Part shown: in pieces, positions 1,935-14,491 of the stretch | Numbering within the stretch: position 1 is the first letter of the stretch | Layout: every line of letters begins with the position of its first letter | Source: an uncultured Chloroflexia bacterium | GTDB lineage: Bacteria > Chloroflexota > Limnocylindria > Limnocylindrales > CSP1-4 | Assembly: GCA_963752475.1 (NCBI GenBank) | Contig: CAVVYR010000008.1 | Coordinates: forward strand, 448,001 to 512,000 | Reading direction: 5' to 3' | DNA length: 64,000 bases | Translations under genes and position numbers: made by a program | The notes under the pieces: generated by a model | Seen by the model: the letters and a program-made list of their open reading frames with translations, nothing else | The model's database searches: none | Told to the model about the DNA's origin: nothing

Positions 1935-3484
1935 CGCAGCAGCCTCGCGGTCGCCTCGGAGACCTCGTCAGCCGCGCTCTCGACGATGGCCAGCACGTCC
2001 TCGACCGGTGCCTGCGTCAGGTCCAGCACCAGCGCCGGGAAGAGGCCCAGCGCCACCGCCAGCAGCACCAGTGGCGCCAGCGTGGCAGCTTCGATGCGGT
2101 CGACGTCGGTGAGCTTGTCACCGAGTGACTTCAGGAAGTCGGTGACGTCGCCCATGATGATGTTCTGGACCATGTACAGCAGATAGACGGCCGCGAAGAT
2201 GATGGTGAAGGCGGCCACGTAGCCGACCCACGGCTCCCAGGTGACGGCGCCGAGGATGACCAGGAACTCGCCCACGAAGCCGGCCAGGCCGGGCAGTCCG
2301 GCTGAGGCCAGGCTGAAGAAGACCATCAGGGTCGCGAACACCGGGACCCGCTGCCCCAGGCCGCCCATCTTGGCGATGGTGCGGTCGTGGGTGCGCTCGT
2401 AGATCACACCCACGAGCAGGAAGAGGGCGCCGGTGATCACACCATGGCCGACCATCTGGAAGATGGCGCCCTGCACGCCCTGCTCGTTGAGCACGAAGAT
2501 GCCCAGGGTCACGAAGCCCATGTGGCTGACCGAGGAGTAGGCGATGAGGCGCTTGAGGTCCGTCTGACGGATGGCCACGATGGCGCCGTAGAGCATGCCC
2601 ACGATCGAGAGCGCGATGATGAAGGGCGCCAGGTCCTGCGTGGCGTCGGGGAAGAGCGGCAGGTTCATGCGGATGAGCCCGTAGCCACCGAGCTTCAGCA
2701 GCACGCCGGCGAGGATGACCGAACCCGCGGTTGGGGCCTCGGTGTGAGCATCGGGCAGCCACGTGTGGACCGGCCACATCGGTACCTTGATGGCGAAGGC
2801 CAGGAAGAAGCCCAGGAAGGCCCAGAACTGGAGCGTGGGATCGAAGCCGGCCTCCACCAGCGTCACGTAGTCGAAGGCACCGGTCCAATCACCGCCGTTC
2901 TGGCCCTGATAGGTGAAGGCCAGCGCGAGGATGGCCACCAGCATCAGCAGCGAGCCGACGAGCGTGTAGATGACGAACTTGATGGTGGCGTAGATGCGGT
3001 TGGCGCCGCCCCAGATGCCGATGATCAGATACATCGGCACGAGCACCACTTCCCAGAAGACGTAGAAGAGGAAGGTGTCGAGCGCGAGGAAGACGCCGAG
3101 CATGCCCACCTCGAGCACGAGGAAGGAGATCATGTACTCCTTCACCCGCGTCTTGATGGGTCCGAACGAGGCCAGGATGCTGATCGAGGTCAGCAGCGTC
3201 GTGAGCAGGATGAGCACCAGGCTGATGCCGTCCACACCGACCTTGTACTGGATGCCGAAGAAGCCGATCCAGTCGACCGCCTGCACCAGCTGGAAGCCTT
3301 CGCGCTCGTTGTCGAAGCTCACCGCCACGAGCAGCGAAAGGGCGAGGGCCACGAGCGAGATAGCGAGAGCACCCCAGCGATGGAGATCCACGCGCTTGTT
3401 GGGCACGAAGAGCAGGATCAGGGCGCCCACCAGCGGCGTGAAGATCAGCAGGGTGAGCCAGTCGAGGCGGTCGAGGAACTCCAT
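1931..3484 (-). CDS. nuoM: NADH-quinone oxidoreductase subunit M
   Basis: Motifs FYVFWE, AIKVPMWPVHTWLPDAHTEAPT, DLKRLIAYSSVSHMG. Confidence 0.97.
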   Translation of the reverse strand: MEFLDRLDWLTLLIFTPLVGALILLFVPNKRVDLHRWGALAISLVALALSLLVAVSFDNEREGFQLVQAVDWIGFFGIQYKVGVDGISLVLILLTTLLTSISILASFGPIKTRVKEYMISFLVLEVGMLGVFLALDTFLFYVFWEVVLVPMYLIIGIWGGANRIYATIKFVIYTLVGSLLMLVAILALAFTYQGQNGGDWTGAFDYVTLVEAGFDPTLQFWAFLGFFLAFAIKVPMWPVHTWLPDAHTEAPTAGSVILAGVLLKLGGYGLIRMNLPLFPDATQDLAPFIIALSIVGMLYGAIVAIRQTDLKRLIAYSSVSHMGFVTLGIFVLNEQGVQGAIFQMVGHGVITGALFLLVGVIYERTHDRTIAKMGGLGQRVPVFATLMVFFSLASAGLPGLAGFVGEFLVILGAVTWEPWVGYVAAFTIIFAAVYLLYMVQNIIMGDVTDFLKSLGDKLTDVDRIEAATLAPLVLLAVALGLFPALVLDLTQAPVEDVLAIVESAADEVSEATARLLR

Positions 3485-5541
3485 CAGCGGGCCATCAGGA
3501 TGAAGAGCGTCGCGATGACGACGAGGCCGATGGCGATGCCAAGGGCGTAGTTCTGTACTCGGCCGGTCTGGATCTGCCGTACGTCGTCACCGATACGCTG
3601 GGTGACCGCGCCAACGCCGTTGACCACGCCGTCGATGACCTTCACGTCGAACCACATGACGCCGTTGGCCACGCGTCCACCGATGACGTAGAAGAGGAGG
3701 TGGTTGAGCTCGTCGAAGTACCACTTGTTGAGCGAGCCGGTGTAGAGGAAGCGGCTGACCCGGTTGCGCTCAGCCAGGCTCTCAACGGTCTCGAGGCGGG
3801 CGCGTGTGTTGAAGACGCCGAAGAGCCAGATGGCCGCGCCGATGCCAAGGGCGGCCATGGCCACCGAGATGATCAGCAGCGCGCCGTTCAGGCCGAAGAA
3901 CTCGTACTCCGGGAAGGAGATGCCGAGGATGGCCTCACCGGGGTGGAACACCGGTTCGAGCCACTTCTTGATGGGCGAGGTGCCAAGGAGCGGTCCACCC
4001 GGGTCGAAGGCGACCTTGCCGGCGTCGTTGACGAAGAGCCCGGTGCCGATGATGAGGCCGAGGAAGGTCGTAGGGATGGCCAGCAGCACGAGCGGCCCGA
4101 CCATCGAGGGCGGTGACTCGTGGACCTTGGGCTCGATCTCCGGATCGACCCGACTCTTGCCGTAGAAGGTCAGGCCCATGAGTCGGAACATATAGAAGCC
4201 GGTGAGGGCGGCCACGATGATGCCCACGATGAACACCGGCCACCAGCCAAGGACGAAGGCTTCGTCGAGGATGAGGTCCTTCGAGAAGAAGCCCGCGAAG
4301 AGCGGGATACCGGCGAGCGACAGGGAGCCGAGGAGGAACGTCGCGTGCGTCCACGGGATCCTGCGCCAGAGTCCGCCCATCTTGGTCATGTCCTGCTCTT
4401 CGTGCATCGCGTGGATGACCGAGCCGGAGCCGAGGAAGAGCAGGCCCTTGGTGAAGCCGTGGGCCATGAGGTGGAAGATCGCCGCCAGCCAGGCACCCAC
4501 GCCCAGGGCCATGAACATGTAGCCCAGCTGGCTGAGGGTGGAGTAGGCCAGAACGCGCTTGATGTCCTTCTGGGTCAGCGCGATGGTCGCGGCCAGGACC
4601 GCGGTGAAGGTGCCCAGGAGAGCCACCAGCAGCAGGGCCTCGGGCGCTGAGGCGAAGATGGGCGTGGTGCGGGCGATGAAGTAGACGCCGGCGTTGACCA
4701 TGGTGGCCGCATGGATGAGCGCGGAGACCGGCGTGGGGCCCTCCATCGCATCGGGCAGCCAGACATGGAAGGGGAACTGAGCGCTCTTGCCGGCCGCGCC
4801 GACGAAGAGGAGCACGGCCACGGTGTTGCGAACGAGCGGGTCGGCCGACGCGGTATTCCACGCCCCGAAGGACTCGAAGATGTCCATCGTGCCGGTGATG
4901 AGGAAGACGCCGATGATGCCGACGAGGAAGCCGTGGTCGGCGACGCGGTTGACAAGGAACGCCTTCTTCGAAGCCAGCGCCGGTGCGCGCTTCGTGTACC
5001 AGAAGCCGATCAGCAGGTAGGACGAGAGGCCCACCAGCTCCCACGCGCCGAAGACGACCAGGTAGCTGCTCGCGAGCACCAGCAGGAGCATCGAGAACAT
5101 GAACAGGTTGAGGTAGGCGAAGAAGCGCCACTTCGACGGGTCGTGCTCCATGTAGCCGATGCTGTAGATGTGCACCAGTGCGCCGATCCAGGTGACCACG
5201 ATGAGCATCAGCGCCGAGAGGTTGTCGAGCACGAACCCGAACTCGACCTGCAGATCGCCCACGCCGACCCAGGTGTAGAACATGTGCGCGATGCCGTGCT
5301 CGCCGTAGGCACCGGAGAGTTGCTGGAAGGCGAGGTACGTGGCCACCAGCGTCGCAGCCACGATGGCGCCCACCGAGATGACCCACGGCCGCGAGAGGCG
5401 CCGGCCGACGAGACCCGTGAGCAGGAAGCCGGCCAGCGGCAGGCCCAGCACGAGCAGGATGAGGAACGTCTCGAGCTCGCCTGCGGGCCCGGGCGGGATG
5501 AAGAGCTCGCCGCCCTCCTCCGCGTTGAAGATCAGGTCCAT
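3484..5541 (-). CDS. nuoL: NADH-quinone oxidoreductase subunit L
   Basis: Motifs GKSAQFPFHVWLPDAMEGPTPVSALIHAATMV, DIKRVLAYSTLSQLG, C-terminal QTGRVQNY. Confidence 0.97.
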   Translation of the reverse strand: MDLIFNAEEGGELFIPPGPAGELETFLILLVLGLPLAGFLLTGLVGRRLSRPWVISVGAIVAATLVATYLAFQQLSGAYGEHGIAHMFYTWVGVGDLQVEFGFVLDNLSALMLIVVTWIGALVHIYSIGYMEHDPSKWRFFAYLNLFMFSMLLLVLASSYLVVFGAWELVGLSSYLLIGFWYTKRAPALASKKAFLVNRVADHGFLVGIIGVFLITGTMDIFESFGAWNTASADPLVRNTVAVLLFVGAAGKSAQFPFHVWLPDAMEGPTPVSALIHAATMVNAGVYFIARTTPIFASAPEALLLVALLGTFTAVLAATIALTQKDIKRVLAYSTLSQLGYMFMALGVGAWLAAIFHLMAHGFTKGLLFLGSGSVIHAMHEEQDMTKMGGLWRRIPWTHATFLLGSLSLAGIPLFAGFFSKDLILDEAFVLGWWPVFIVGIIVAALTGFYMFRLMGLTFYGKSRVDPEIEPKVHESPPSMVGPLVLLAIPTTFLGLIIGTGLFVNDAGKVAFDPGGPLLGTSPIKKWLEPVFHPGEAILGISFPEYEFFGLNGALLIISVAMAALGIGAAIWLFGVFNTRARLETVESLAERNRVSRFLYTGSLNKWYFDELNHLLFYVIGGRVANGVMWFDVKVIDGVVNGVGAVTQRIGDDVRQIQTGRVQNYALGIAIGLVVIATLFILMAR

Positions 5542-5547
5542 CCCCGC

Positions 5548-5859
5548 CTACTCCTTCATCGACGCGTACTCGTCGACGAGCGGCGTCCTGCGGTTGCGGT
5601 AGATGGCGATGACGATGGCCAGGCCCACGGTGGCCTCGCCGGCGGCGACGGCGATGACGAACAGCGCGATGCTCGAGGCGTGGGCCGCGAAGTCGGGCGT
5701 GAAGGCGCCGAAGGCGATGATGGCCAGGTTGACCGAGTTGAGCATGATCTCGATGGACATGAGCATGGCGATGGCGTTGCGCTTGGCCAGGAAGCCGAAG
5801 GCGCCGATGCCGAAGAGCATGACCGCCAGGATGAGGTAGGCCTCGAGCGACTGGCTCAT
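5548..5859 (-). CDS. nuoK: NADH-quinone oxidoreductase subunit K
   Basis: 103 aa with three TM segments; MSIEIMLN and AAGEATVGLA motifs. Confidence 0.97.
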   Translation of the reverse strand: MSQSLEAYLILAVMLFGIGAFGFLAKRNAIAMLMSIEIMLNSVNLAIIAFGAFTPDFAAHASSIALFVIAVAAGEATVGLAIVIAIYRNRRTPLVDEYASMKE

Positions 5860-6437
5860 GCGCTCTCATCCTCATCGGGCACGGGCCTGCCGGGCTGGTT
5901 GGTCTGCGGCATGTCGTCGTCGCGCTTGGCCACGTAGAGCCCGCCGATCACGCCCGCGAGCAGGAGCACGCCCAGTGCCAGGAAGGCGAACATGTACTCC
6001 TCGTAGACCGTCAGCGCGATCTCGCGCGCCTCGGCCACCTGCACCGTGCTGGTCGCGTCCCACTCGGTGAGCATCACCGACGTGATCATCAGGAAGACGA
6101 GCACGATGGCGGCGAGGGCGCCGGCCCACCATTGGCGGTTGAAGACGAGCTTGGCCGGCCCGCGCTTGGAGTGCGTGATCATCACCGCGAAGAGGATGAG
6201 CACGGCCACGGCCCCGACATACGTGAGTACCTGGCTGATGGCCAGGAAGGCGCTGCCGAGCATGCCGTAGATGCCTGCGAGGGCGGCGAAGGACAGGATG
6301 AGCCAGAGCGCCGACCGGATGATGTCCCGGCCGAGCACGACGAGCAGCGCGGAGCCCAGTGTCACGCCGGCGAGCAGCAGGAAGACGAAGTCATCCCAGC
6401 GCCAGTCGAGATACGGGACCGTCCCCGGTAGCTCCAC
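5856..6437 (-). CDS. nuoJ: NADH-quinone oxidoreductase subunit J
   Basis: QVLTYVGAVAVLILFAVM motif; position in the operon. Confidence 0.95.
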   Translation of the reverse strand: MELPGTVPYLDWRWDDFVFLLLAGVTLGSALLVVLGRDIIRSALWLILSFAALAGIYGMLGSAFLAISQVLTYVGAVAVLILFAVMITHSKRGPAKLVFNRQWWAGALAAIVLVFLMITSVMLTEWDATSTVQVAEAREIALTVYEEYMFAFLALGVLLLAGVIGGLYVAKRDDDMPQTNQPGRPVPDEDESA

Positions 6438-6460: not shown

Positions 6461-9070
6461 CTACTTGTGGTGGATGGCGCTGCCACCGCCGGCACCGCCG
6501 GAGGCGTCCCTGGCGCCGTTGGTAGATCCATTCGTCCCGTTCACGCCGTCCCCGGCGAGGCCTTGCGGCAGCATGGGCAGCAGCCGCTCGTGCGGGATGT
6601 CGCGGCCGTCGGCCTGGGCTCGGCTGAGCCAGTCACGCTCGCGTCGGATGTAGCTGATCTCCGAGTCGAACTCCATCGCGGCCATGGCGATGAGGTCGAT
6701 CATCGGTTCTTCTCGCGACTCGTGCGCGAGCTCGAAGTCGGGACCGCAGCGGAGCGCGTCGTAAGGACATGCATCGACACAGATGCCGCACAGGATGCAG
6801 CGGGACTCATCCACCTCGTACTTCTCCAGCACGCGCGGCTTGGGCATGAGCGCGCCCGTCGGGCACGTCTCGGCGCAGCGGCCGCAGGAGACGCATGGCG
6901 TGGTGTTGAGGCTCATGTCCAGCGGCGTCGTCACGAGCGTGTCGAAGCCGGTGCGCATGAAGTCGTAGCAGGCTGCTCCCACGACCTCGCGGCAGACGTT
7001 GGCGCAACGGCCGCAGTCGATGCAGCGCGAGGGCTCGCGCAGGATGAAGGCGTGGCTGTCGTCGCGGATGTAGTCGTGGTTGAGGCCGGTGAAGCGGTTC
7101 TCGCTGACGCTGCGGAAGGAGAGGCCGGTGCGCTTGGGCTCGAGGGTCTGCAGGGTGGTGCCGTACTCGATGCCCTGGCGGCGCAGGTCACAGTACCCGA
7201 TGGCCTCGCAGGTGCACTGCAGGCAGCGGGCCGACTCGGACATGGCCTCTTCCGCCGTGTAGGGGATCTCGTACTCGATGTAGGAGTCGTTGCGCTCCTC
7301 GGGCGCCATCGACTTCAGCCGGATGCGCGGCTCCTTGACCTCGCCGGTGTAGGGCACGATCGACAGGAACTCCGGCTGCGGCTCGGCCAGGACCTGGCGC
7401 GTGCGGATCTCCTCGAGGTCCTGGCCCTGCAGGTAGGCGTCGATGGCGTAGCTCGCCCGGCGACCCTCAGCGATGGCCTCCACGACCGTGGCGGCGCCGG
7501 TGCGCACGTCGCCGGCACCGAAGACGCCCGCCCGCCCGGTGCCGAAGGTGACCGCGTCGGCGTCCAGCCGCCAGCGCTTGGTCTTCTCGATGCCCTCCGC
7601 GCCGGTCTCGAGCCAGTCCAGCTGGGGGCCCTGGCCGATGGCCAACAGCACGCGATCGCAGTCGATGATGAACTCGGTGCCCTCGACCGGCTGCGGGCGT
7701 CGGCGGCCAGAGGCGTCCGGCTCGCCCAGCGCCATGCGCTGGAACTCCACGCCGGTGACCTTGTCGTTCTCGTCGGTCACCACCCGGGTGGGCGAGGCTT
7801 GGAAGATCGCGCGCGCACCCTCCTCCAGCATCTCGTGGACCTCGTCCGCGGCGGGCATGTCCTTCATGTCGCGGCGGTAGACGAGGGTGGTCTCGGTGCA
7901 GCCCTGGCGGACCGAGGTGCGCGAGCAGTCCATGGAGGTGAAGCCGCCGCCGATGACCACGACGCGCTTGCCCTTGTGGTCGGGATAGGGCAGGCCCAGC
8001 GTGGCCACGCGCAGGTACTCCAGGCCGTCGATGACGCCGTCGGCGTCCTCGCCGGGGATACCCAGCTTGTTCGTGTCGTAGCAGCCGATGGCTACGAGCA
8101 CCGCGTCGTAGCCCTGGTTCTGCAGGTCGTCGATGGTGAAGTCCTCGCCCAGGGCCACGCCCGTGACGAGCTTGGCGCCGAGGTCCCACACCGCCTGGTA
8201 CTCGGCTGCCAGGATGCGCTCCTTGGGCAGGCGGTACTCGGGGATGCCGTAGCGCAGCATGCCGCCCGCATCGGGATCGCGTTCGTAGACCGTGACCTCG
8301 TGGCCGCTGAGTGAGAGGTAGTAGGCCGCGGACATGCCCGAAGGGCCGGAGCCGATGACGGCCACGCGCTTGCCGGTGGCGGGCTGCTGGTCGAAGGGCA
8401 GAGGTGCCTTGGCGCCGTCAGCCTGGGCCTTGAGCACCTGGTCGCCGGCGTAGCGGTGGCTGTCGCGGATGGCGATGGCCTCTTCCACCTCGTCGCGGCG
8501 GCAGTGGTCCTCGCATGGAGCCGGACAGACACGCCCGAGCACCGAGGGGAATGGGATCGTGCGCTTGAAGACGCGCGCCGACTCGACGAAGTCGCCCTCG
8601 GTGTTGGCCTTCAGGAAGCCCGGGATGTCGATGTGGCTGGGGCACTTGTTCTGGCACGGCGGCAGGCAGTAGGCGTTGTGGTCGCTGAAGATGAGCTCAA
8701 GGTTCGTCTTGCGGATCTCGCGCAGCCTCGGGGTCTGGGTCTGCACGACCATGCCCTCCTCGGCCTCACGCGAGCAGGAGATCGGCGGCGTGTCCTCGCC
8801 CTCGACCTCGACCACGCACATGCGGCAGGCTCCGAAGCCGGGCAGCTTGGGCTCGTAGCAGAGCGTGGGCACCTCGATGCCGGCATCGCGGCAGACGTCG
8901 AGGATGGTCTGGCCCTCGCGGGCCTGCAACGTGCGGCCGTCGATCTCGAGCTCGAAGGCAGCAGAGGATTGCCTTCGCTGCGGCGACTGGGTCGTGAGCA
9001 GGCGCTCAGCGGCCTCGTCGGGCGACGGGTCGGACGGCTGGTGGATGATCTCGGGGAGCGTGTCGGTCAT
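6461..9070 (-). CDS. Multidomain Fe-S flavoprotein: NuoG/HydA-type N-terminal [2Fe-2S] + GltD/NfnB/SfrB-like FAD/NAD(P)H domain + 2x[4Fe-4S] + C-terminal half of NuoI
   Basis: PTLCY..GACRMC..SC; PPCQNKCP and GRVCPAPCEDHC; VIGSGPSG; GGMLRYGIPEYRLP; VIGGGFTSMD..VYRR; RCIDCGRCANVC; CVSCGRCAETCP; then RCILCGICVDACPYDAL..DFELA. ATG at 9070 overlaps the upstream stop (ATGA). Confidence 0.88.
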   Translation of the reverse strand: MTDTLPEIIHQPSDPSPDEAAERLLTTQSPQRRQSSAAFELEIDGRTLQAREGQTILDVCRDAGIEVPTLCYEPKLPGFGACRMCVVEVEGEDTPPISCSREAEEGMVVQTQTPRLREIRKTNLELIFSDHNAYCLPPCQNKCPSHIDIPGFLKANTEGDFVESARVFKRTIPFPSVLGRVCPAPCEDHCRRDEVEEAIAIRDSHRYAGDQVLKAQADGAKAPLPFDQQPATGKRVAVIGSGPSGMSAAYYLSLSGHEVTVYERDPDAGGMLRYGIPEYRLPKERILAAEYQAVWDLGAKLVTGVALGEDFTIDDLQNQGYDAVLVAIGCYDTNKLGIPGEDADGVIDGLEYLRVATLGLPYPDHKGKRVVVIGGGFTSMDCSRTSVRQGCTETTLVYRRDMKDMPAADEVHEMLEEGARAIFQASPTRVVTDENDKVTGVEFQRMALGEPDASGRRRPQPVEGTEFIIDCDRVLLAIGQGPQLDWLETGAEGIEKTKRWRLDADAVTFGTGRAGVFGAGDVRTGAATVVEAIAEGRRASYAIDAYLQGQDLEEIRTRQVLAEPQPEFLSIVPYTGEVKEPRIRLKSMAPEERNDSYIEYEIPYTAEEAMSESARCLQCTCEAIGYCDLRRQGIEYGTTLQTLEPKRTGLSFRSVSENRFTGLNHDYIRDDSHAFILREPSRCIDCGRCANVCREVVGAACYDFMRTGFDTLVTTPLDMSLNTTPCVSCGRCAETCPTGALMPKPRVLEKYEVDESRCILCGICVDACPYDALRCGPDFELAHESREEPMIDLIAMAAMEFDSEISYIRRERDWLSRAQADGRDIPHERLLPMLPQGLAGDGVNGTNGSTNGARDASGGAGGGSAIHHK

Positions 9071-10389
9071 GAAGCCACGGCACCAACTGTGCGGGAGGGT
9101 TGGCAGACACCGGCGGGACATTCACCGCGCTCGGCGTGGGCATCTAGTTCAGGCGCGAAGTATCGCATCACCGACAGCAGTGGGTTGCCGGCGTCGGCTT
9201 CGAGCCCGGAGAGGGCCGCGGCACGCATGTCGGCCGCGAGCGCGCGCATCAGCTCCTGGTCGCTGGGCCGAGTGTGGCCGCTGCAGAGGGCCGCGCCCAG
9301 TTCCGCGAGGCGGCGGATGCCGATGCGATCGGGGATGGTCTTGCCGCTGGCGTTGTCGCTCAGGAAGCGAGTCATGAGTGTGGCCAGGTCGACGAGACAG
9401 ACCTTGTCATCGAGGGCCATGAGCGTGCTCGAGCCGCCCAGTGCGCCAGCCTCGCGCAGGGCCTCGTAGCGCAGCGGGGTGTGGAGCGCGCCCGGCGGCA
9501 GGAAGCCGCCGGTGGGACCGCCCACGAGCACGGCCTTGAGGTTGCCCTTGGTACCGCCGCCGGGGCCGTCCACGATCTCCTTCAGCGTGGCGCCGAAGGG
9601 GACCTCGGCGATACCCGGCCGCTTCACGGAGCCACCCAGCTGCAGCAGCGTGGTTCCCGGGCTTTCCGCGTCAACCAGCGAGCTGAAGGCGCCGGCGCCG
9701 TTGGCCACGATCCAGGGCACGGCCGCGAGGGTCTTGACGTTGTTGATGACGGTGGGCTTGCCCCACAGGCCCTTGCGCGACGGGAACGGCGGCCGCTGAT
9801 CGGGCTGCGCGCGCTGGCCCTCCAACGCTCGCAGCAGCACGGTCTCCTCGCCGACCATGAAGCTGCCCGTCAGCTCGCGCACCTCGACCTCGAGGCTGGG
9901 CCCGTCGGCAGAGCGGCCGATGTAGCCGGCTGCAACGGCCTCGTCGATGGCCGCGTCGAGGCGCTCGGCCGCGACGGGTGCCGACGATGAGACGGCGATG
10001 GTGGCCTGCTCGGCACCGACGGCCCAGGCTGCGATGGCCACGCCCTCGACGACGAGGTGCGGGTCCCGCTCCATGAGCACGCGGTCAAGCTGGGCACCCG
10101 GGTCGGCCTCGAAGCCGTTGGCCACGACGTAACGCACCGGGTCGGGCTGCGAGACGCAGTCGCGCCACTTGGCGCCTGTCGGATATCCGGCTCCGCCCAG
10201 GCCGCGCAGGCCGGATTCGGTGATGGTGTGGACGACGGCCTCGGGCGAGAGCTGCTCCGTCGCGCGCTTCCAGGCACTCCAGGCTCCGCCGGCCTCGGCC
10301 ATGGCCAGGTCCTCGACCTCTCCGTCGGCGGCTCGCGCGGTCAGTACCTGCGGCCAGTCCTTGGCTCCCTGCAGGATGGGCAGGCTCAT
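9067..10389 (-). CDS. nuoF: NuoF/HydB-like flavoprotein subunit with degenerate [4Fe-4S] N3 motif
   Basis: SGLRGLGGAGYPTGAKW, GEETVLL, PTVINNVKTL, VGGPTGG; the ESCGKCxPCR-type motif reads NASGKTIPDR. Confidence 0.88.
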   Translation of the reverse strand: MSLPILQGAKDWPQVLTARAADGEVEDLAMAEAGGAWSAWKRATEQLSPEAVVHTITESGLRGLGGAGYPTGAKWRDCVSQPDPVRYVVANGFEADPGAQLDRVLMERDPHLVVEGVAIAAWAVGAEQATIAVSSSAPVAAERLDAAIDEAVAAGYIGRSADGPSLEVEVRELTGSFMVGEETVLLRALEGQRAQPDQRPPFPSRKGLWGKPTVINNVKTLAAVPWIVANGAGAFSSLVDAESPGTTLLQLGGSVKRPGIAEVPFGATLKEIVDGPGGGTKGNLKAVLVGGPTGGFLPPGALHTPLRYEALREAGALGGSSTLMALDDKVCLVDLATLMTRFLSDNASGKTIPDRIGIRRLAELGAALCSGHTRPSDQELMRALAADMRAAALSGLEADAGNPLLSVMRYFAPELDAHAERGECPAGVCQPSRTVGAVAS

Positions 10390-11225
10390 GCCGCCTCCCC
10401 CTGGGGCACGTTGGCGCGCAGGGCCGCGGCGATCGTGGCCGCGTCATCCGGGCTCGACTTGGGCAGCGGTTCGCCGTCGACCTCCACGTAGGCGCTGTCC
10501 TGGGATGCGCCGCCGCACGAGGTGGTGGCGAGGCGCACGGCACCGTCGGGGCTCACGCCACCGATATCGGTGGCGAGGTGCTCGCGGAAGGCCGCCAGTA
10601 CGCGGCCGCCGCCCAGCAGCGTGCAGTTCGTGCAGCGGCAGACGCGGACCACATGGCCCACGGGCTGCTCGAAGTGGAGGTGCGGGTACGACGTGGCCAT
10701 GCCGTACAGCGAGGCGTAGTCGGCGCCGGTCTGGTGGGCGATGTGCTGCAGCGCGGCCACCGGCAGGTGGCCGTAGGCGCCCTGCACCTGCTCGAGCATC
10801 GGCAGCGCGTTGCTCGGCTTGTAGGCACCGGCGCTGAGGATCTCGTCGACGGGGCCCAGGTCGATGGTCTCGAAGGGGTCGAAGGTGCGATCGGGGACCG
10901 GCCGGCCGGAGCGGCGCAGGGCCGACTCCTCACGGCGCTCGGCGTACTGCTCGGAGGCGCCCCAGTGCACGTGGTACCGGTCGCGCGTGTCCACGCCACC
11001 CATATCGATGCACTCGATGGGACAGGCCTGCGCGCACTGGAAGCAGGTCTCGCACTTGAGCGTGCCGGCCTCGTCGTAGACCAGGATCAGCCGACCGCGG
11101 TGCTTCGGGCTGATGGGGTTCTGCTCTTCGGGGTAGCGCACCGTCAGGTTGGGGCGGAAGACCTGCTTGATGGAGAAGGCCATGCCCTTGATGATGGCCA
11201 GGCCGGGGATGCGGTCGGTCCTCAC
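10386..11225 (-). CDS. Fusion of NuoI N-terminal half (one CxxCxxCxxxCP motif) and NuoE-like thioredoxin-fold domain
   Basis: GTG start overlaps the nuoH stop (GTGA); TVRYPEE..KHRGRL..KCETCFQCAQACP is NuoI-N; LEQVQGAYGHLP..YGMATSY..VCRCTNC..SCGG is NuoE-like. Confidence 0.85.
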   Translation of the reverse strand: MRTDRIPGLAIIKGMAFSIKQVFRPNLTVRYPEEQNPISPKHRGRLILVYDEAGTLKCETCFQCAQACPIECIDMGGVDTRDRYHVHWGASEQYAERREESALRRSGRPVPDRTFDPFETIDLGPVDEILSAGAYKPSNALPMLEQVQGAYGHLPVAALQHIAHQTGADYASLYGMATSYPHLHFEQPVGHVVRVCRCTNCTLLGGGRVLAAFREHLATDIGGVSPDGAVRLATTSCGGASQDSAYVEVDGEPLPKSSPDDAATIAAALRANVPQGEAA

Positions 11226-12619
11226 GACAGGTACTCCTTGACCACGATGATGGCGCCGGCGGTGACCATCAGGTTCAGCAGTGCGGCCGGCATCAGCCAC
11301 TTCCAGGCGAAGTTCATCATCTGGTCGATGCGCACGCGGGGGTAGGTGGCGCGCATGAGCACGAACAGCGCGACCAGCGCGAAGGACTTGCCGAAGAAGA
11401 CGAGGATGCCGAGCAGAGCCTCGAAGCTGAAGAGCGCCCAGGTGGTGATGCCGCCCATGACGATGAGGTTGGCCAGGACGAAGCCGACGACGAGCGACTT
11501 GATCGCGCCCCAGTCGGACTTGAGCATCCAGATGAGGCCGCCCAGCGCCAGCCACAGCACGGCCGGGATAAGGAGCGGGACGGCCAGCAGCCACGGACCG
11601 AGCTGACCCGGATCGACGTCGCTGAGCACGACCGGCGTGGCGACCCCGAAGAACTCGAGGATGGGGTCGATATGGATGCCGTGGTGGTAGCCGCCCAGGA
11701 AGAGCGTGACCGTCAGGGCCGAGAGGATGAAGACGTTGACGTACTCGGCGAAGAAGAAGAAGCCGAAGCGCATGCCGCTGTATTCGGTGGCGAAGCCGGC
11801 CACGAGCTCGGAGTCGGCCTCCGTGTAGTCGAAGGGTGTGCGGCCCGCTTCAGCGGTGGCGGCGATGAAGAAGATGATCAGCGCGAGGGGCTGCTGGAAG
11901 GCGTACCAGTTGACGAACCAGCCGCCCTGGTTCTCGACGATGGTGCCAAGGTTGAGCGTGCCCGCGAGCAGGACCACGCCGAAGGCGCCAAGGATGAGCG
12001 GCAGCTCGTAGCTGACGACCGCGGCTGCGGCTCGGATACCGCCGAGCAGCGAGTACTTGTTGTAGCTCGAGAGGCCGGCCATCATCAGGCCGACCACGCC
12101 GATGCCCGAAGCGGCGAAGAAGTAGAGCAGCCCCAGCTCCATGTAGTAGCCGGCCATGCCCGGCGCGAAGGGGATGACCATCAGCGTCATGACCGACGCG
12201 AGGAAGGTCACCGCTGGTGCGAGCGTGAAGACCGGCACGTCCACGCCGCGCGGGGTGTAGTCCTCCTTCGAGAGCACCTTGAGGCCGGCCATCAGCGAGG
12301 CCAGCGCGCCCCACGGGCCAGTGCGGTCGGGACCGACGCGCAAGTTCATCTGCGCGATGATCTTGAGCTCCATGTAGATGATCACGAAGGCCGCCGGCAC
12401 CGTGAAGAGCAGGACGCCGGTGGCCGCAGCGAAGAAGCGCAGGATCTCGATGTTGGCCTCGCCGGCGTCGACGATCCACTCCACGGCTGAGGGGCCGAGG
12501 CCGGTGACCCAGAGCAGGAAGAAGCCGATCGCGCCTGCCAGCACCAGGGCCAGCAGGGCAAGGACGATCTTGCCCAAGGTGGTCACGCCCGCGGGTGCCG
12601 GGCTGGCGGTGGCGCTCAC
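11222..12619 (-). CDS. nuoH: NADH-quinone oxidoreductase subunit H (extended, 465 aa)
   Basis: RVGPDRTGPWG, KVLSKED, NKYSLLGGIR, RTPFDYTEADSELVAGFATEYSG, PRVRIDQMM. Confidence 0.95.
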   Translation of the reverse strand: MSATASPAPAGVTTLGKIVLALLALVLAGAIGFFLLWVTGLGPSAVEWIVDAGEANIEILRFFAAATGVLLFTVPAAFVIIYMELKIIAQMNLRVGPDRTGPWGALASLMAGLKVLSKEDYTPRGVDVPVFTLAPAVTFLASVMTLMVIPFAPGMAGYYMELGLLYFFAASGIGVVGLMMAGLSSYNKYSLLGGIRAAAAVVSYELPLILGAFGVVLLAGTLNLGTIVENQGGWFVNWYAFQQPLALIIFFIAATAEAGRTPFDYTEADSELVAGFATEYSGMRFGFFFFAEYVNVFILSALTVTLFLGGYHHGIHIDPILEFFGVATPVVLSDVDPGQLGPWLLAVPLLIPAVLWLALGGLIWMLKSDWGAIKSLVVGFVLANLIVMGGITTWALFSFEALLGILVFFGKSFALVALFVLMRATYPRVRIDQMMNFAWKWLMPAALLNLMVTAGAIIVVKEYLS

Positions 12620-13839
12620 TTGTCGATCCCGCCCATGATCGGGTCAAGGCTGGCCATGATGGCCATGATGTCGGCGAGAACGTGACCCTTGGAGAGCGGG
12701 CCCACGGCCTGCAGGTTGAAGAACGAGGGATCGTGGATGCGGAAGCGGAACGGCTGGTCGGAGCCGTCGCTGACCGCGTAGGCGGCATATTGGCCGCGGG
12801 GTGACTCGAGCGCTGCGAAAGCACGGTTCGGCGGGATGCGCAGCAGGCGCGGCAGCTTGGCCATCACCGGCCCGTCGGGCATCTCGTGGAGCACCTGGTC
12901 GATGATGCGGATCGACTGCTTGATCTCGTCGATGTGCAGCAGGTAGCGCGCATAGGAGTCGCCATCGTTGCGCGTGGGGATATCGAACTCGAGCTCGGGA
13001 TAGACGCTGTACGGATGCGCGCGGCGGACGTCGTAGGGCACGCCCGAGGCTCGCAGGGGCGGGCCGGTCATGTTGTAGCGCAGGGCCATCTCGCGGTCGA
13101 CCACGCCGAGCCCCTTCGTGCGGTTCACGAAGATCTCGTTCTCGTTCATGAGCGTGGCCTGATCGTCGATGCGTGCGGCAGCGTGCCCCATCCAGTCGCC
13201 GAGGCGGCTGAGGAACTCGTGGTTGAGATCGCCGTTGACACCACCGATGCGCATGTAGTTGAAGAGCAGCTTCTGGCCGGTCAGCGCCGCCAGCATCTCC
13301 ACGATCTCGTCGCGCTCGGCGAAGCCGTAGAGGATGGGCGTGAGGCCGCCCAGGTCCAGCGCCAGCCAGCCGATGAAGGTGGCGTGGCTGCTGATGCGGT
13401 TGAGCTCCCAGGCGAGCACGCGGATGTACTCGGCGCGCCGCGGCACCTCGAGATCGAGCAGGCGCTCGGCGGACAGCACCGGCAGCGACTCACTGAACAT
13501 CGAAGCGATGTACTCGAGCGGGTCGGTGTTGCTGATGGCGTGGTGCCAGTCACCGTGCTCGCAGATCTTCTCCACGCCGCGGTGGAGGTAGCCCAGCACC
13601 GGGTCGATGTCGACGATCCTCTCGCCGTCGATCTTCATGACCACGCGCAACACGCCGTGGGTGGAGGGGTGCTGAGGGCCCAGGTTCAGGAACATCTCGC
13701 CGTCGTCGAGCTGGTAGAACTCGGCCTCGCGCTCGGTACGCGGGGTCAGCGGCGGGATGGCGTCGTAGATGGTGCCCGGCGTCTGGACCATGATCTCGGG
13801 ATCGTCGAGGCTGCGCATCTGCTCGCGGTCGGTGGTCAT
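12616..13839 (-). CDS. nuoD: NADH-quinone oxidoreductase subunit D
   Basis: NLGPQHPSTHGVLR, GYLHRGVEK, ELNRISSH, ESPRG. Confidence 0.96.
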   Translation of the reverse strand: MTTDREQMRSLDDPEIMVQTPGTIYDAIPPLTPRTEREAEFYQLDDGEMFLNLGPQHPSTHGVLRVVMKIDGERIVDIDPVLGYLHRGVEKICEHGDWHHAISNTDPLEYIASMFSESLPVLSAERLLDLEVPRRAEYIRVLAWELNRISSHATFIGWLALDLGGLTPILYGFAERDEIVEMLAALTGQKLLFNYMRIGGVNGDLNHEFLSRLGDWMGHAAARIDDQATLMNENEIFVNRTKGLGVVDREMALRYNMTGPPLRASGVPYDVRRAHPYSVYPELEFDIPTRNDGDSYARYLLHIDEIKQSIRIIDQVLHEMPDGPVMAKLPRLLRIPPNRAFAALESPRGQYAAYAVSDGSDQPFRFRIHDPSFFNLQAVGPLSKGHVLADIMAIMASLDPIMGGIDK

Positions 13840-14468
13840 GCCGGCTCCTCGCCGCTCTCGACCGCATCGGTCTCGTCGGCCGAGCCTGCGGCCACGGCCA
13901 GCAGCTTGCCATCCGCGCCCAGCCGCGCGCCGGCACCTGCGCTGGTCCGGATCACGGGGTTCTCGCGGTTCTCGGCCGGGGCCACGGGCGTCTCGATGTG
14001 GCGGATGCCCTCGCCCGGAGCACGCGAGGCGTCGTCAGGCATGGCGAAGTCCTTGCGCAGGGGGAAGGCCAGGTAGTCGGGCGGCATGTAGATCCGGCGC
14101 AGGTCGCGGTTGCCCTCGAACTCGATGCCGAACATGTCATAGGCCTCGCGCTCGCCCCACTCGGCACCAGGCCAGAGCTGGGTGACCGAGGGCAGGCGCG
14201 GATCTTCACGCGAGAGGCCGTCGGCGATGACCCGGACCCAGTCCTCCGAGAGCGGGCTCCAGAGGTGGTACACGACCTGCATGGTCACGCCGGTGTCGAC
14301 GCCGCAGATGTCGGCCATCAGCTCGAAACGCAGATCGCCGTCCTCGCGCAGCGTGCGCATGACGGCCGTGAGGTCCGCGGGACGGACGACCAGCTCGATG
14401 GTGTCGCCCATGACCTCCGCAGGCACGACGGTCCGATCAGCGAGGCGATCGTCGATGAGGGCGAGCAT
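13836..14468 (-). CDS. nuoC: NADH-quinone oxidoreductase subunit C
   Basis: EREAYDMFGIEFEG..DLRRI..FPLRKDF; start uncertain (ATG 14468, in-frame ACG 14480). Confidence 0.93.
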   Translation of the reverse strand: MLALIDDRLADRTVVPAEVMGDTIELVVRPADLTAVMRTLREDGDLRFELMADICGVDTGVTMQVVYHLWSPLSEDWVRVIADGLSREDPRLPSVTQLWPGAEWGEREAYDMFGIEFEGNRDLRRIYMPPDYLAFPLRKDFAMPDDASRAPGEGIRHIETPVAPAENRENPVIRTSAGAGARLGADGKLLAVAAGSADETDAVESGEEPA

Positions 14469-14491
14469 GCGCGTATCCGTGGCGGGCCTCC

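What the first reader, a model, noticed from the sequence alone, without database searches (positions are those of the whole stretch)
6461..9070. NuoG replaced by a GltD/NfnB/SfrB-like flavoprotein: probable NADPH-linked proton-pumping complex I
Seen: the 869-aa protein has a NuoG/HydA-type [2Fe-2S] N-terminus, then a full glutamate-synthase-beta-type module (PPCQNKCP, GRVCPAPCEDHC, GSGPSG FAD site, GGGFTSMD plus VYRR). After it come RCLQCTC..C and two [4Fe-4S] motifs; there is no molybdopterin or H-cluster domain. Established: the YRR after the second Rossmann strand binds the 2'-phosphate in NADPH-using GltD/NfnB/SfrB proteins. Inference: electrons enter from NADPH at this FAD and pass along the Fe-S chain to the split N6a/N6b and N2. 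Reverse electron flow to make NADPH, or bifurcation, is also possible.
Basis: partly seen in the sequence, partly recalled or inferred. Interest (0 to 1): 0.88.

Follow-up and report, generated by a model that had tools for sequence, protein, structure and literature searches.

The report
Complex I with transhydrogenase-type NADPH module
A soil Chloroflexota bacterium builds its only respiratory complex I with an electron-input module borrowed from soluble NADPH-oxidising transhydrogenases and welded onto the two halves of a split core subunit, so it probably burns NADPH instead of NADH.

Summary
The protein is a homologue of the large subunit of the soluble NfnABC/StnABC ("Bfu") transhydrogenases. 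It has a [2Fe-2S] domain, an inserted GltD/NfnL-type FAD/NADPH module and three [4Fe-4S] sites. Its formate-dehydrogenase-like tail is replaced by the C-terminal half of NuoI.

The N-terminal half of NuoI is fused to a NuoE/StnA-like protein two genes upstream, and a NuoF/StnB-like gene lies between them. So a Bfu-type three-gene cassette sits in frame inside nuoI of an otherwise complete nuoABCDH..JKLMN operon. This is the only complex I locus found in the genome.

All cluster cysteines and the YRR motif are invariant in 81 of 81 sequences. The NuoF-like subunit evolves fast, and in this species it has lost every cysteine of the N3-type cluster. This leaves FAD/NADPH as the only connected entry point.

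The architecture is found throughout the window's own class (relatives labelled Limnocylindrales). It also occurs in cultured Ktedonobacteria, where a canonical complex I coexists with it.

The best reading is a proton-pumping NADPH:quinone oxidoreductase (about 0.55). No activity has been tested. My literature searches found no description of it.

The parts
6461..9070 (-). Target gene ('G'), 869 aa: an NfnA/StnC-like flavo-iron-sulfur subunit fused to the C-terminal half of NuoI
   Evidence: ORF; Pfam. PDB matches: 9bov_A 2.3e-166, 9n5u_A 1.2e-146, 8oh5_C 4.7e-145.
8732..8959 (-). [2Fe-2S] domain (aa 38-113; C71, C82, C85, C99). It equals cluster A1 of NfnA and N1b of NuoG.
   Evidence: Pfam Fer2_4 9e-21. 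The four Cys are invariant in 81/81.
8429..8668 (-). GltD/NfnL N-terminal two-[4Fe-4S] domain (aa 135-214; C135, C139, C143, C182, C186, C190). His205, just beyond the Pfam domain, takes the place of the NfnA/StnC Lys170 ligand.
   Evidence: Pfam Fer4_20 3.6e-18. Cys invariant in 81/81. His in 81/81 plus two distant members, Lys in three FdhF-type homologues. The role of the Lys is from PMC10482914 section 9 and PMC11829005 section 11.
7463..8368 (-). FAD and NAD(P)H Rossmann folds (aa 235-536): GSGPSG, GGGFTSMD and YRR 398-400
   Evidence: Pfam Pyr_redox_2 1.3e-29. Motifs invariant in 81/81. YRR is shared with the three solved NADPH-oxidising homologues (alignments).
7190..7225 (-). C616-x2-C619-x-C621-x5-C627: a [4Fe-4S] site equivalent to A3 of NfnA. 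It links the GltD clusters to the ferredoxin-like domain.
   Evidence: Aligned to the same motif in 9bov_A, 9n5u_A and 8oh5_C. Invariant in 81/81. Cluster naming follows PMC11829005 section 11.
6848..7045 (-). Ferredoxin-like 2x[4Fe-4S] domain (aa 676-741; C683/686/689/693 and C726/729/732/736), equal to A2 (the Y-junction) and A4
   Evidence: Pfam Fer4_Nqo3, Fer4_7. Invariant in 81/81.
6671..6835 (-). C-terminal half of NuoI (aa 746-800; C758/761/764/768 followed by Pro769), followed by a poorly conserved tail to aa 869
   Evidence: TIGR01971 profile 71-117, 52.6 bits. It is one of the two best NuoI matches in the whole genome. Invariant in 81/81.
9067..10389 (-). NuoF/StnB-like gene ('F'), 440 aa. 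It lacks the N-terminal [2Fe-2S] and C-terminal ferredoxin domains of BfuB. All four N3/B1 cysteines are replaced in this species (Ser348, Thr351, Asp354, Ser394; codons at 9346-9348, 9337-9339, 9328-9330, 9208-9210).
   Evidence: Pfam Complex1_51K 2.9e-40; NADH_4Fe-4S only 41 bits. PDB: 9bov_B 350 bits against Nqo1 254 bits. Column counts; codons.
10386..11225 (-). Fusion gene ('IE'), about 279 aa from the GTG at 11225. The NuoI N-terminal half (about 10983-11195) carries C-x2-C-x2-C-x3-C-P. A conserved linker follows, then a NuoE/StnA-like thioredoxin-type domain (about 10431-10880).
   Evidence: TIGR01971 profile 6-66; Pfam 2Fe-2S_thioredx 2.2e-23. PDB: 8oh5_A 2.3e-16 and 8e9g_I (query 11-81). 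Start inferred from the GTGA overlap and the consensus Met in alignment A1.
11222..12619 (-). nuoH
   Evidence: Pfam NADHdh 1.6e-96
12616..13839 (-). nuoD. It is the only NuoD locus in the genome and is of the 'variant' type, matching Pfam as positions 1-169 plus 197-271.
13836..14537 (-). nuoC
   Evidence: Pfam Complex1_30kDa
14492..15166 (-). nuoB. The tandem CC, GDCTC and PGCPP motifs for cluster N2 are present.
   Evidence: Pfam Oxidored_q6. Motifs read from the translation; their assignment to N2 is recalled.
15157..15516 (-). nuoA
   Evidence: Pfam Oxidored_q4
5856..6437 (-). nuoJ
   Evidence: Pfam Oxidored_q3
5548..5859 (-). nuoK
   Evidence: Pfam Oxidored_q2
3484..5541 (-). nuoL
   Evidence: Pfam Proton_antipo_M/N/C
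1931..3484 (-). nuoM
   Evidence: Pfam Proton_antipo_M
405..1934 (-). nuoN
   Evidence: Pfam Proton_antipo_M

Best explanation
The operon encodes a complete membrane and quinone module of respiratory complex I (NuoA, B, C, D, H, J, K, L, M, N). Its electron-input module is not NuoEFG. It is a captured NfnABC/StnABC-type (Bfu) module, inserted in frame into nuoI. The N-half of NuoI is fused to the NuoE/StnA-like protein, and the C-half of NuoI is fused to the NfnA/StnC-like flavoprotein.

Proposed mechanism:
1. NADPH donates a hydride to the FAD of the GltD/NfnL-type module.
2. Electrons pass one at a time through the two GltD clusters (A7, here Cys3+His, then A6).
3. They continue through the CxxCxC..C cluster (A3) to the Y-junction cluster A2.
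4. In the soluble enzymes they would go on to A1 -> B1 -> FMN. Here they leave through A4 into the reconstituted NuoI clusters (N6a/N6b).
5. From there they pass to N2 in NuoB and on to menaquinone, driving proton pumping.

In this species the NuoF-like subunit has no N3/B1 cluster, so its flavin site, if still occupied, is electrically isolated. The F-like and E-like proteins mainly serve as scaffold.

Shown: domain composition, ligand conservation, homology, gene order, distribution and relative evolutionary rates.
Inferred: NADPH as substrate, the A4-to-N6 contact, assembly of the two NuoI halves, quinone reduction and proton pumping.
For: 1. Architecture:
- Pfam and NCBIfam domains of all 13 genes are.
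- The NuoI profile is split cleanly, positions 6-66 in one protein and 71-117 in the other. These are the two best NuoI matches in the genome, and nothing else reaches the family cut-off.
- There is one NuoD locus in the genome and no NuoG above the cut-off.
- 4-nt start/stop overlaps (GTGA/ATGA) occur at the H/IE, IE/F and F/G junctions.

2. Origin of the input module. All three proteins match Bfu subunits better than respiratory ones:
- G: 9bov_A 2.3e-166, 9n5u_A 1.2e-146, 8oh5_C 4.7e-145, against Nqo3 8.7e-14.
- F: 9bov_B 350 bits against Nqo1 254 bits.
- E part: StnA, HydC and NfnC rank ahead of respiratory NuoE.

3. In the solved homologues the GltD-type FAD is the NADPH site, and FAD-A7-A6-A3-A2 is the electron path. 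A2-A4-A5 is a side branch towards the Fdh-like domain, and that branch is functional in formate dehydrogenases (PMC10482914 sections 7-9, 11; PMC11829005 section 11). Here the NuoI C-half begins 22 residues after the last Cys of the A4 motif.

4. Conservation:
- Every ligand Cys of A1, A7/A6, A3, A2/A4 and the NuoI half is invariant in 81 of 81 sequences, as are YRR and both Rossmann motifs.
- G is the most conserved protein of the operon (median identity to the window 77%). F is among the least (52%).
- F identity is lower than G identity in 2344 of 2346 orthologue pairs.
- In a matched control of one genome pair, canonical NuoF is 75% and NuoG 61% identical, whereas variant F is 53% and variant G 78%.

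5. The FMN route is cut:
- The window's F has Ser/Thr/Asp/Ser at the four N3 positions. The other 69 orthologues keep three Cys.
- In the alignment columns examined (42 Tyr, 26 Phe, 2 other among 70; Tyr in the six distant ones), the variant F proteins have Tyr or Phe, with two exceptions, where NfnB has the Asp-195 said to stabilise the flavosemiquinone. The Asp-195 role is from a passage of PMC12018979.

6. Distribution:
- The gene order is the same in 74 of 80 related loci: 52 are complete and 22 are cut by contig ends. The other 6 differ only in the M/N best-hit labels.
- Variant-type NuoD occurs in 60 of 61 class genomes, and a contiguous canonical-type match in 1 of 61.
- All 16 fusion-bearing G sequences fall on one side of a branch (SH-aLRT 99).

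7. The genome also has an NDH-2-type hit and PntB, so NADH oxidation need not depend on this complex.
Against: - No enzymatic, cofactor or structural measurement exists for any member.
- NADPH specificity rests on homology and on the YRR motif. The motif's role in binding the 2'-phosphate is recalled, not tested here.
- 69 of 70 orthologous F proteins keep three N3 cysteines, the Gly-rich loop, Lys74 and the GEET motif. Distant members keep all four cysteines. In most of the clade an FMN/NAD(H) site could therefore still be wired in.
- The window species may be an odd, partly degenerate case. It shows 8 departures from positions that are >=95% conserved, the most among 70 sequences.
- The A7 ligand is His, not the Lys reported as essential in Stn/Nfn, so redox tuning differs.
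- No distances could be measured because no coordinates were available. The A4-to-N6 contact is inferred from the short linker alone.
- One distant fusion protein (P0134) lacks YRR.
- The genome is a MAG, 88.8% complete with 5.8% contamination, so a second complex I could have been missed.
Confidence: 0.55

Rival explanations
1. Dual-donor enzyme. Both NADPH (FAD on G) and NADH (FMN on the F-like subunit, via the N3-like cluster and the [2Fe-2S] A1) feed the same Y-junction (A2) and then NuoI. The window species has merely lost the NADH arm.
For: - 69 of 70 F orthologues keep Cys at three N3 positions, with Thr/Ser at the fourth. The GxRGxGGAG loop, Lys74/Trp75 and GEET are near-invariant.
- Six distant members keep all four Cys.
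- The A1 [2Fe-2S] ligands are invariant in 81/81.
- The A1-B1-FMN path exists in the solved homologues (PMC11829005 section 11).
Against: - F evolves much faster than G.
- The Asp next to the flavin is Tyr or Phe in nearly all variant F proteins examined.
- NNVET is degenerate in the distant members.
- The window species dispenses with the cluster altogether.
Confidence: 0.17
2. The complex works physiologically in reverse. Proton-motive force drives electrons from quinol uphill to NADP+, supplying NADPH for biosynthesis, for example during growth on H2 or CO.
For: - Complex I is reversible (established knowledge).
- The genome encodes two NiFe-hydrogenase loci with NuoF-like partners.
- Ktedonobacteria carrying the module are trace-gas oxidisers (PMC6776052, passages seen).
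Against: - In the sampled class it is the only complex I, so a forward respiratory role is the simpler reading.
- PntB is present as an alternative route to NADPH.
- Nothing in the sequence indicates direction.
Confidence: 0.1
3. The GltD-type flavin site does not use a pyridine nucleotide as donor. It might reduce or oxidise another substrate, or accept electrons from a partner protein, and the complex would take its electrons elsewhere.
For: - All NCBIfam equivalog matches fall below their cut-offs. For example PRK12814 scores 551 against 916, and gltA 311 against 472.
- GGGNTAID of the solved homologues is GGGFTSMD here, and the A7 ligand is changed from Lys to His.
Against: - Both Rossmann motifs, the PEYRL Arg and YRR are invariant and identical to NADPH-bound homologues.
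- There is no extra candidate donor gene in the operon.
Confidence: 0.08
4. Bfu-like electron bifurcation or confurcation, coupling NADPH, NAD+ and the quinone/Fe-S chain.
For: All three input subunits derive from a bifurcating family.
Against: - The defined bifurcation site B1-FMN-C1 and the B3/B4 ferredoxin domain are absent or degenerate.
- F lacks the N- and C-terminal BfuB domains.
- B1 is lost in the window.
- The canonical fourth Cys of C1 is replaced in 32 of 32 sequences.
- Distant members lack the C1 domain altogether.
- Quinone reduction is downhill and needs no bifurcation.
Confidence: 0.04

Closest known systems
NfnABC / StnABC (Bfu-family) NADPH:NAD+/ferredoxin transhydrogenases. 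Structures: 9bov (Caldicellulosiruptor), 9n5u (archaeal), 8oh5 (Sporomusa ovata).
   Same: - Same order of three genes (E-like, F-like, large subunit).
- Same large-subunit topology: [2Fe-2S] domain, inserted GltD/NfnL FAD-NADPH module, CxxCxC..C cluster and 2x[4Fe-4S] domain.
- They are the best sequence matches for all three proteins.
   Different: - There is no Fdh-like C-terminal domain. In the soluble enzymes this domain holds the tetramer together.
- NuoI halves are fused to two of the three subunits.
- The F-like subunit lacks the [2Fe-2S] and B3/B4 domains and, in this species, B1.
- The A7 ligand is His instead of the conserved Lys.
- The module is embedded in a membrane nuo operon.
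Canonical 14-subunit respiratory complex I (NuoA-N; for example Thermus thermophilus Nqo1-14)
   Same: - All membrane subunits and NuoB, C and D are present and syntenic.
- The N2 and NuoI cluster motifs are present.
- The N-terminal [2Fe-2S] and ferredoxin-like parts of NuoG are recognisable.
   Different: - nuoE, nuoF and nuoG are not between nuoD and nuoH. Their counterparts sit inside nuoI.
- NuoI is in two polypeptides.
- The NuoG-like subunit carries a FAD/NADPH module and has no molybdopterin-like domain.
- NuoF has no N3 in this species.
- The conservation pattern is inverted: G is more conserved than F.
11-subunit complex I relatives with alternative input modules (cyanobacterial NDH-1 with ferredoxin; Fpo with FpoF)
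   Same: The same idea: an ABCDHIJKLMN core is served by a non-NuoEFG donor module. The gene order around the insertion matches that core. This comparison is recalled; PMC3144371 was seen only in a search listing.
   Different: Here the donor module is covalently fused to both halves of NuoI and is pyridine-nucleotide linked.
Mbx-like operons in which NuoI is substituted by a GltD-related flavoprotein (Degli Esposti 2015, PMC4758237; passage seen)
   Same: A GltD-type NAD(P)-interacting flavoprotein is attached at the NuoI position of a complex-I-like membrane complex.
   Different: - Those are Mbx/hydrogenase-like complexes, proposed to reduce NAD(P)+.
- There NuoI is replaced, not split.
- They have no StnA/StnB-like partners and no [2Fe-2S]/ferredoxin-like scaffold.

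Membership tests
Respiratory complex I (Nuo) | Seven membrane subunits plus NuoB, NuoC and NuoD in one locus | tested here: met
   Pfam hits for NuoA, B, C, D, H, J, K, L, M and N. The order is conserved in the related loci.
Respiratory complex I (Nuo) | NuoI as one polypeptide with two CxxCxxCxxxCP motifs | tested here: not met
   The profile is split into positions 6-66 and 71-117 on two proteins. No match in the genome reaches the TIGR01971 cut-off.
Respiratory complex I (Nuo) | NuoG with a complete N5 motif and a molybdopterin-like C-terminal domain | tested here: not met
   NADH-G_4Fe-4S_3 is matched only at aa 120-136, and there is no molybdopterin domain. TIGR01973 scores 92.7 bits against a cut-off of 470. 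No NuoG above the cut-off in the genome.
Respiratory complex I (Nuo) | NuoF with the four-Cys N3 cluster next to FMN | tested here: not met
   Ser/Thr/Asp/Ser in the window. Relatives have three Cys plus Thr/Ser.
Respiratory complex I (Nuo) | NADH:quinone oxidoreduction coupled to proton pumping | not testable with these tools
   Needs biochemistry.
Bfu family (NfnABC/StnABC) | Large subunit: [2Fe-2S] domain, inserted NfnL/GltD module, A3 cluster and ferredoxin-like A2/A4 clusters | tested here: met
   Aligned end to end (query 41-767) with 9bov_A, 9n5u_A and 8oh5_C. Ligands invariant.
Bfu family (NfnABC/StnABC) | Fdh/NuoG-like C-terminal domain of the large subunit (A5 cluster, tetramer contacts) | tested here: not met
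   The protein ends about 100 aa after the NuoI half, with no molybdopterin domains.
Bfu family (NfnABC/StnABC) | Lys ligand of cluster A7 (K170), reported as strictly conserved | tested here: not met
   His205 in 81/81 plus two distant fusion proteins. Lys in the three FdhF-type homologues aligned. The feature is from PMC10482914 section 9 and PMC11829005 section 11.
Bfu family (NfnABC/StnABC) | BfuB with B1 [4Fe-4S], FMN and the C-terminal B3/B4 ferredoxin domain | tested here: not met
   The query covers only template residues about 120-525 of 584, and the B1 ligands are lost.
Bfu family (NfnABC/StnABC) | BfuC with the four-Cys [2Fe-2S] cluster C1 | tested here: inconclusive
   Three canonical Cys are kept: two in 32/32 and one in 29/32. 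The fourth is Ser/Gly/Ala/Asn/Thr in 32/32. An extra Cys two residues after the first is invariant in 32/32. Distant members lack the domain.
GltD / NfnL (NfnB) flavoprotein fold | Fer4_20 two-cluster domain plus FAD and NAD(P)H Rossmann folds | tested here: met
   Pfam hits above their cut-offs. PDB matches: NfnB 4ylf_B 2.6e-82, NfnI-L 5jca_L 2.9e-76, GltD 2vdc_G 5.6e-66.
GltD / NfnL (NfnB) flavoprotein fold | NADPH signature (YRR after the second Rossmann strand) | tested here: met
   YRR 398-400 is invariant in 81/81 and identical in the three NADPH-oxidising structures. Its role in binding the 2'-phosphate is recalled, not tested.
GltD / NfnL (NfnB) flavoprotein fold | Score above a curated equivalog cut-off (glutamate synthase small subunit, PRK12814 and others) | tested here: not met
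   PRK12814 551 against 916; gltA 311 against 472; gltD_gamma 317 against 483.
SfrB (NADPH:Fe(III) reductase beta subunit) | N-terminal 2x[4Fe-4S] ferredoxin plus GltD, partnered with SfrA | not tested
   No SfrB reference sequence was available from a tool. The architecture recalled for SfrB differs from the one found here.

The most novel reading that the evidence does not exclude
This is a second, independent invention of a pyridine-nucleotide-linked complex I. An 11-subunit-type core captured a whole NfnABC/StnABC transhydrogenase operon by in-frame insertion into nuoI. The Y-junction of that module was rewired so that its former dead-end branch (A2-A4) became the output to N6a/N6b.

The result would be a truly NADPH-specific proton pump. 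In relatives that keep the N3-like cluster, the same junction would also connect FMN/NAD(H). Those enzymes would then be membrane-bound, quinone-coupled NADPH/NADH redox valves.
Probability: 0.2. Interest if true: 0.9.

Novelty: new variant of a known kind. Interest (0 to 1): 0.74.

Why it matters
- Complex I is textbook NADH-specific, and no proton-pumping NADPH:quinone oxidoreductase of this family is established. If the reading is right, a whole class of abundant soil and freshwater Chloroflexota respires NADPH directly through its only complex I. That would change how their energy budgets and redox balance are modelled.
- The locus is also a clear case of modular evolution: a soluble bifurcating-enzyme module welded onto a split core subunit.
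- It offers a natural experiment on how electron-input modules were recruited to the ancestral 11-subunit complex.
- Cultured Ktedonobacteria (Thermogemmatispora, Ktedonobacter, Dictyobacter) carry the module, so the claim can be tested directly.

Tried and rejected
1. Complex prediction for the two NuoI halves (alignments A1 and A2) gave no verdict. The complex scored 0.35 and a control 0.40. It is evidence neither way.

2. My first reading, that loss of N3 is clade-wide, was wrong. Column counts show it is unique to the window among 70 sequences.

3. I considered a second electron entry through the NuoE-like [2Fe-2S] fused to the NuoI N-half. This was weakened: six distant members lack that domain entirely, and the fourth canonical Cys is missing in 32/32.

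4. RNA evidence:
- One search found only small shares (0.06-0.09 of sampled words) in six RNA libraries.
- Laying three of them (X1, X2, X6) plus X7 gave short contigs. A few were identical over 151-209 nt.
- Contigs in RNA libraries do not show transcription, and no silent control stretch could be laid.

5. The plasmid collection held only FdhF-type or plain GltD-type relatives.

7. Literature: eight full-text searches found no description of a split NuoI or of a Bfu/GltD-type subunit inside a nuo operon of Chloroflexota. Subscription journals and bioRxiv supplements were not covered.

8. I therefore did not spend a folding job on it.

Full report
**Observation**

The 869-aa ORF is real, but it lies on the minus strand (6461-9070). 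Its ATG overlaps the stop of the preceding gene as ATGA.

Pfam finds the following:
- a Fer2_4 [2Fe-2S] domain (aa 38-113);
- only the first 17 positions of the NuoG N5 motif (aa 120-136);
- the two-cluster Fer4_20 domain of the GltD/dihydropyrimidine-dehydrogenase type (135-214);
- a Pyr_redox_2 flavoprotein body (235-536);
- ferredoxin-type motifs up to aa 774;
- no molybdopterin or H-cluster domain.

After the CxxCxC..C site there are three, not two, CxxCxxCxxxC motifs. NCBIfam assigns the last one (aa 746-792) to positions 71-117 of the 121-position NuoI profile.

**The operon**

Reading the minus strand, the order is nuoA, B, C, D, H, then three unusual genes, then nuoJ, K, L, M, N.

- The first unusual gene ('IE', about 279 aa from a GTG at 11225) starts with NuoI profile positions 6-66, including one CxxCxxCxxxCP motif. 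It continues through a conserved linker into a thioredoxin-like NuoE-type domain.
- The second ('F', 440 aa) is NuoF-like.
- The third is the target ('G').

The junctions H/IE, IE/F and F/G are 4-nt overlaps (GTGA, ATGA, ATGA).

Across the whole genome the two best matches to the NuoI profile are exactly these two halves (profile positions 1-66 and 71-117). Nothing reaches the family cut-off. There is one NuoD locus and no NuoG above its cut-off. The genome is a MAG, 88.8% complete with 5.8% contamination, so absence elsewhere is not proven.

The three other NuoF-like genes of the genome belong to other systems, and all keep a high-scoring N3 domain:
- a NuoF-GltD fusion beside a NiFe hydrogenase;
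- a HoxF-like gene beside a second NiFe hydrogenase;
- a NuoE+NuoF+FdhA set.

**What the input module is**

All three proteins are closer to the soluble electron-bifurcating Bfu family than to respiratory NuoEFG.

- G aligns from residue 41 to 767 with the large subunits of Caldicellulosiruptor NfnABC (9bov_A, 2.3e-166), an archaeal Nfn-Bfu (9n5u_A, 1.2e-146) and Sporomusa StnABC (8oh5_C, 4.7e-145). Thermus Nqo3 scores 8.7e-14.
- F scores 350 bits with 9bov_B and 254 bits with Thermus Nqo1. It covers only the core of BfuB, lacking BfuB's N-terminal [2Fe-2S] and C-terminal ferredoxin domains.
- The E part of IE matches StnA, HydC and NfnC ahead of respiratory NuoE. Its N-terminus matches NuoI.

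The gene order E-like, F-like, large subunit is that of stnABC. The flanks (ABCDH, I, JKLMN) have the order of 11-subunit complexes; that order is recalled. The simplest history is an in-frame capture of a Bfu-type operon inside nuoI.

I built a quick maximum-likelihood tree of 49 rows with the NuoI half removed:
- 16 fusion-bearing proteins;
- 32 FdhF-type homologues taken from the representative search;
- one long-branched GltD outgroup.

It puts all 16 fusion proteins on one side of a branch (SH-aLRT 99). This is compatible with a single origin. The root is unreliable.

**Electron path**

In the solved enzymes the GltD-type FAD is the non-bifurcating NADPH site. Electrons run FAD-A7-A6-A3-A2-A1 to B1 (the N3 equivalent) and FMN. 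A2-A4-A5 is a side branch towards the inactive Fdh-like domain, and that branch is functional in true formate dehydrogenases (PMC10482914 sections 7-9 and 11; PMC11829005 section 11; PMC12018979 passages).

In G every ligand of A1, A7/A6, A3, A2 and A4 is invariant in 81 of 81 sequences (window plus 80 orthologues). The Fdh-like domain with A5 is gone. The NuoI C-half begins 22 residues after the last Cys of the A4 motif.

I therefore infer that the former dead-end branch is the output: A2 -> A4 -> N6a/N6b -> N2. This step, and the assembly of the two NuoI halves, are inferences. No coordinates were available to measure distances.

A clade marker is His205 in place of the Lys that ligates A7 in Nfn/Stn. 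It is His in 81/81 plus two distant members, and Lys in three FdhF-type homologues.

**NADPH site**

Both Rossmann motifs, the PEYRL arginine (StnC R239) and TLVYRRDMKDMPA are invariant in 81/81. YRR is shared with the three NADPH-oxidising structures. That YRR binds the 2'-phosphate is recalled knowledge, not tested here. One distant fusion protein of unknown lineage (P0134) lacks it.

**The F-like and E-like subunits**

In the window all four N3/B1 cysteines are replaced: codons AGC, ACC, GAT and TCC, against TGC, ACC, TGT and TGC in the nearest relative.

This is not a clade trait. The comparison set was 70 sequences: the window plus 69 of 78 orthologues, 9 being dropped for under 90% coverage. 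In that set:
- the first, third and fourth positions are Cys in 69, and non-Cys only in the window;
- the second is Thr (46), Ser (20), Ala (3) or Cys (1);
- the window also carries the most departures (8) from positions that are >=95% conserved.

Six distant members keep all four Cys.

Nearly all variant F proteins examined have Tyr or Phe where NfnB has Asp-195, the residue said to stabilise the flavosemiquinone. The counts are 42 Tyr, 26 Phe and 2 other among the 70 sequences, and Tyr in the six distant members (PMC12018979 passage).

F evolves fast:
- Median identity to the window is 52% for F against 77% for G.
- F identity is below G identity in 2344 of 2346 orthologue pairs.
- In one matched genome pair the canonical enzyme shows the opposite pattern: NuoF 75% and NuoG 61%, whereas variant F is 53% and variant G 78% (n = 1 pair).

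For the E-like domain I compared 32 sequences: the window plus 31 of 75 orthologues, 44 being dropped because no single ORF spanned the query. The fourth canonical Cys is absent in all 32. An extra Cys two residues after the first is invariant. Distant members lack the thioredoxin-like domain altogether.

Together this points to G as the catalytic input and to F and E as largely structural. In this species the FMN arm is fully disconnected.

**Distribution**

- The 120 best protein-database hits to the C-terminal part of G are at least 79% identical. Most are about 850-870 aa long, with some shorter fragments, and those with names are labelled Chloroflexota or Limnocylindrales.
- In species-representative genomes 708 of 740 candidate stretches encode relatives. 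The 80 best are nearly all MAGs labelled Chloroflexota, Chloroflexia, Anaerolineaceae or Limnocylindrales; one is labelled Polarisedimenticolia.
- Gene order matches the window in 74 of these 80 loci: 52 are complete and 22 are cut by contig ends. The other 6 differ only in nuoM/nuoN best-hit labels, which I did not resolve.
- In a sample of 61 genomes of the window's class, 60 show a NuoD with the variant's split Pfam pattern. The remaining genome has only a contig-cut partial match. One genome (G406) also has a contiguous canonical-type match.
- In a 401-genome sample of the phylum, near-full-length matches to a distant fusion protein occur in 73 genomes. These cover the window's class and at least three further families. 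The tally includes three unpublished genomes that contribute no fusion locus.
- The protein from one of those families is 100% identical to a protein named Thermogemmatispora carboxidivorans. Close homologues are named Ktedonobacter, Ktedonospora, Dictyobacter and Tengunoibacter, and all are annotated only as 'FAD-dependent oxidoreductase'. Another family is Ktedonobacterales.

In those genomes the module sits as nuoB-IE-F-G. In the one inspected in detail it lies beside a divergently oriented isocitrate dehydrogenase gene. The variant nuoA/C/D/H genes lie elsewhere, and a canonical 14-gene nuo operon coexists.

**Physiological context**

The window genome also encodes PntB and an NDH-2-type protein. 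NADH can therefore be oxidised or converted without this complex.

**Verdict**

The most likely function is a proton-pumping NADPH:quinone oxidoreductase whose input module was captured from a Bfu-type transhydrogenase (confidence about 0.55).

The main rival is a dual NADPH/NADH enzyme in relatives that keep the N3-like cluster. Reverse operation, another flavin substrate and bifurcation are less likely.

Eight literature searches found no description of this arrangement. The nearest printed idea is a GltD-related flavoprotein replacing NuoI in Mbx-like operons (PMC4758237, passage). A transcriptome paper on Thermomicrobium lists its complex I genes as nuoA-E,H-N (PMC6776052, passage). I could not check whether that organism carries the variant.

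**Caveats**

- Everything functional is inferred from sequence.
- The genome is an incomplete MAG.
- The complex-prediction job gave no verdict.
- The RNA-library contigs do not establish transcription.

Noticed in passing
G000 contig C4, about 244851-250883 (locus L007:1852-7884): A 1113-aa fusion of a NuoF-like protein (intact N3 domain) with a complete GltD-type module lies next to a NiFe-hydrogenase large subunit. It is possibly an NADP-linked soluble hydrogenase. A second, HoxF-like locus with a NiFe hydrogenase is on C6 (L008).
   Followed up: partly
Proteins P0130, P0189, P0199, P0197, P0225, P0153: Six FdhF-type homologues with the same [2Fe-2S]-GltD insertion are about 810-850 aa long and all end at the same '...DHCARL' motif. 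They look like gene calls truncated at a selenocysteine TGA of true formate dehydrogenases.
   Followed up: no
Locus L102:7927-9132 (minus strand), next to nuoB-IE-F-G at 9419-14678: In the Thermogemmatispora-type genome the four-gene module is divergently adjacent to an isocitrate/isopropylmalate dehydrogenase-family gene (Pfam Iso_dh 3.6e-135). If that enzyme is NADP-dependent, it would be a source of NADPH.
   Followed up: no
Locus L104 (G211:C115:1-20000): One contig carries two nuo clusters. One is nuoA-B-C-D followed by F- and G-like genes of a different type. The other is the variant nuoA-B-C-D-H-IE-F-G.
   Followed up: partly
Window 7073-7123 (aa 650-666 of G): The window-type (Limnocylindrales-labelled) proteins carry a roughly 17-residue insertion between the A3 and A2 motifs. 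It is absent from the Ktedonobacteria-type and FdhF-type homologues. They also carry a clade-wide extra Cys701.
   Followed up: no
Protein P0134 (816 aa, unknown lineage): This distant member has the same NuoI-C fusion, but its second Rossmann region is degenerate (no YRR; GDGFAAAE instead of GGGFTSMD). Its nucleotide site may differ or be lost.
   Followed up: partly
Class sample, e.g. G151:C2:98983, G169:C6:51019, G178:C5:1197644: Some genomes of the window's family hold additional, weaker NuoD-like matches (E 1e-27 to 1e-44). These may belong to hydrogenase-type or other complex-I-like systems.
   Followed up: no
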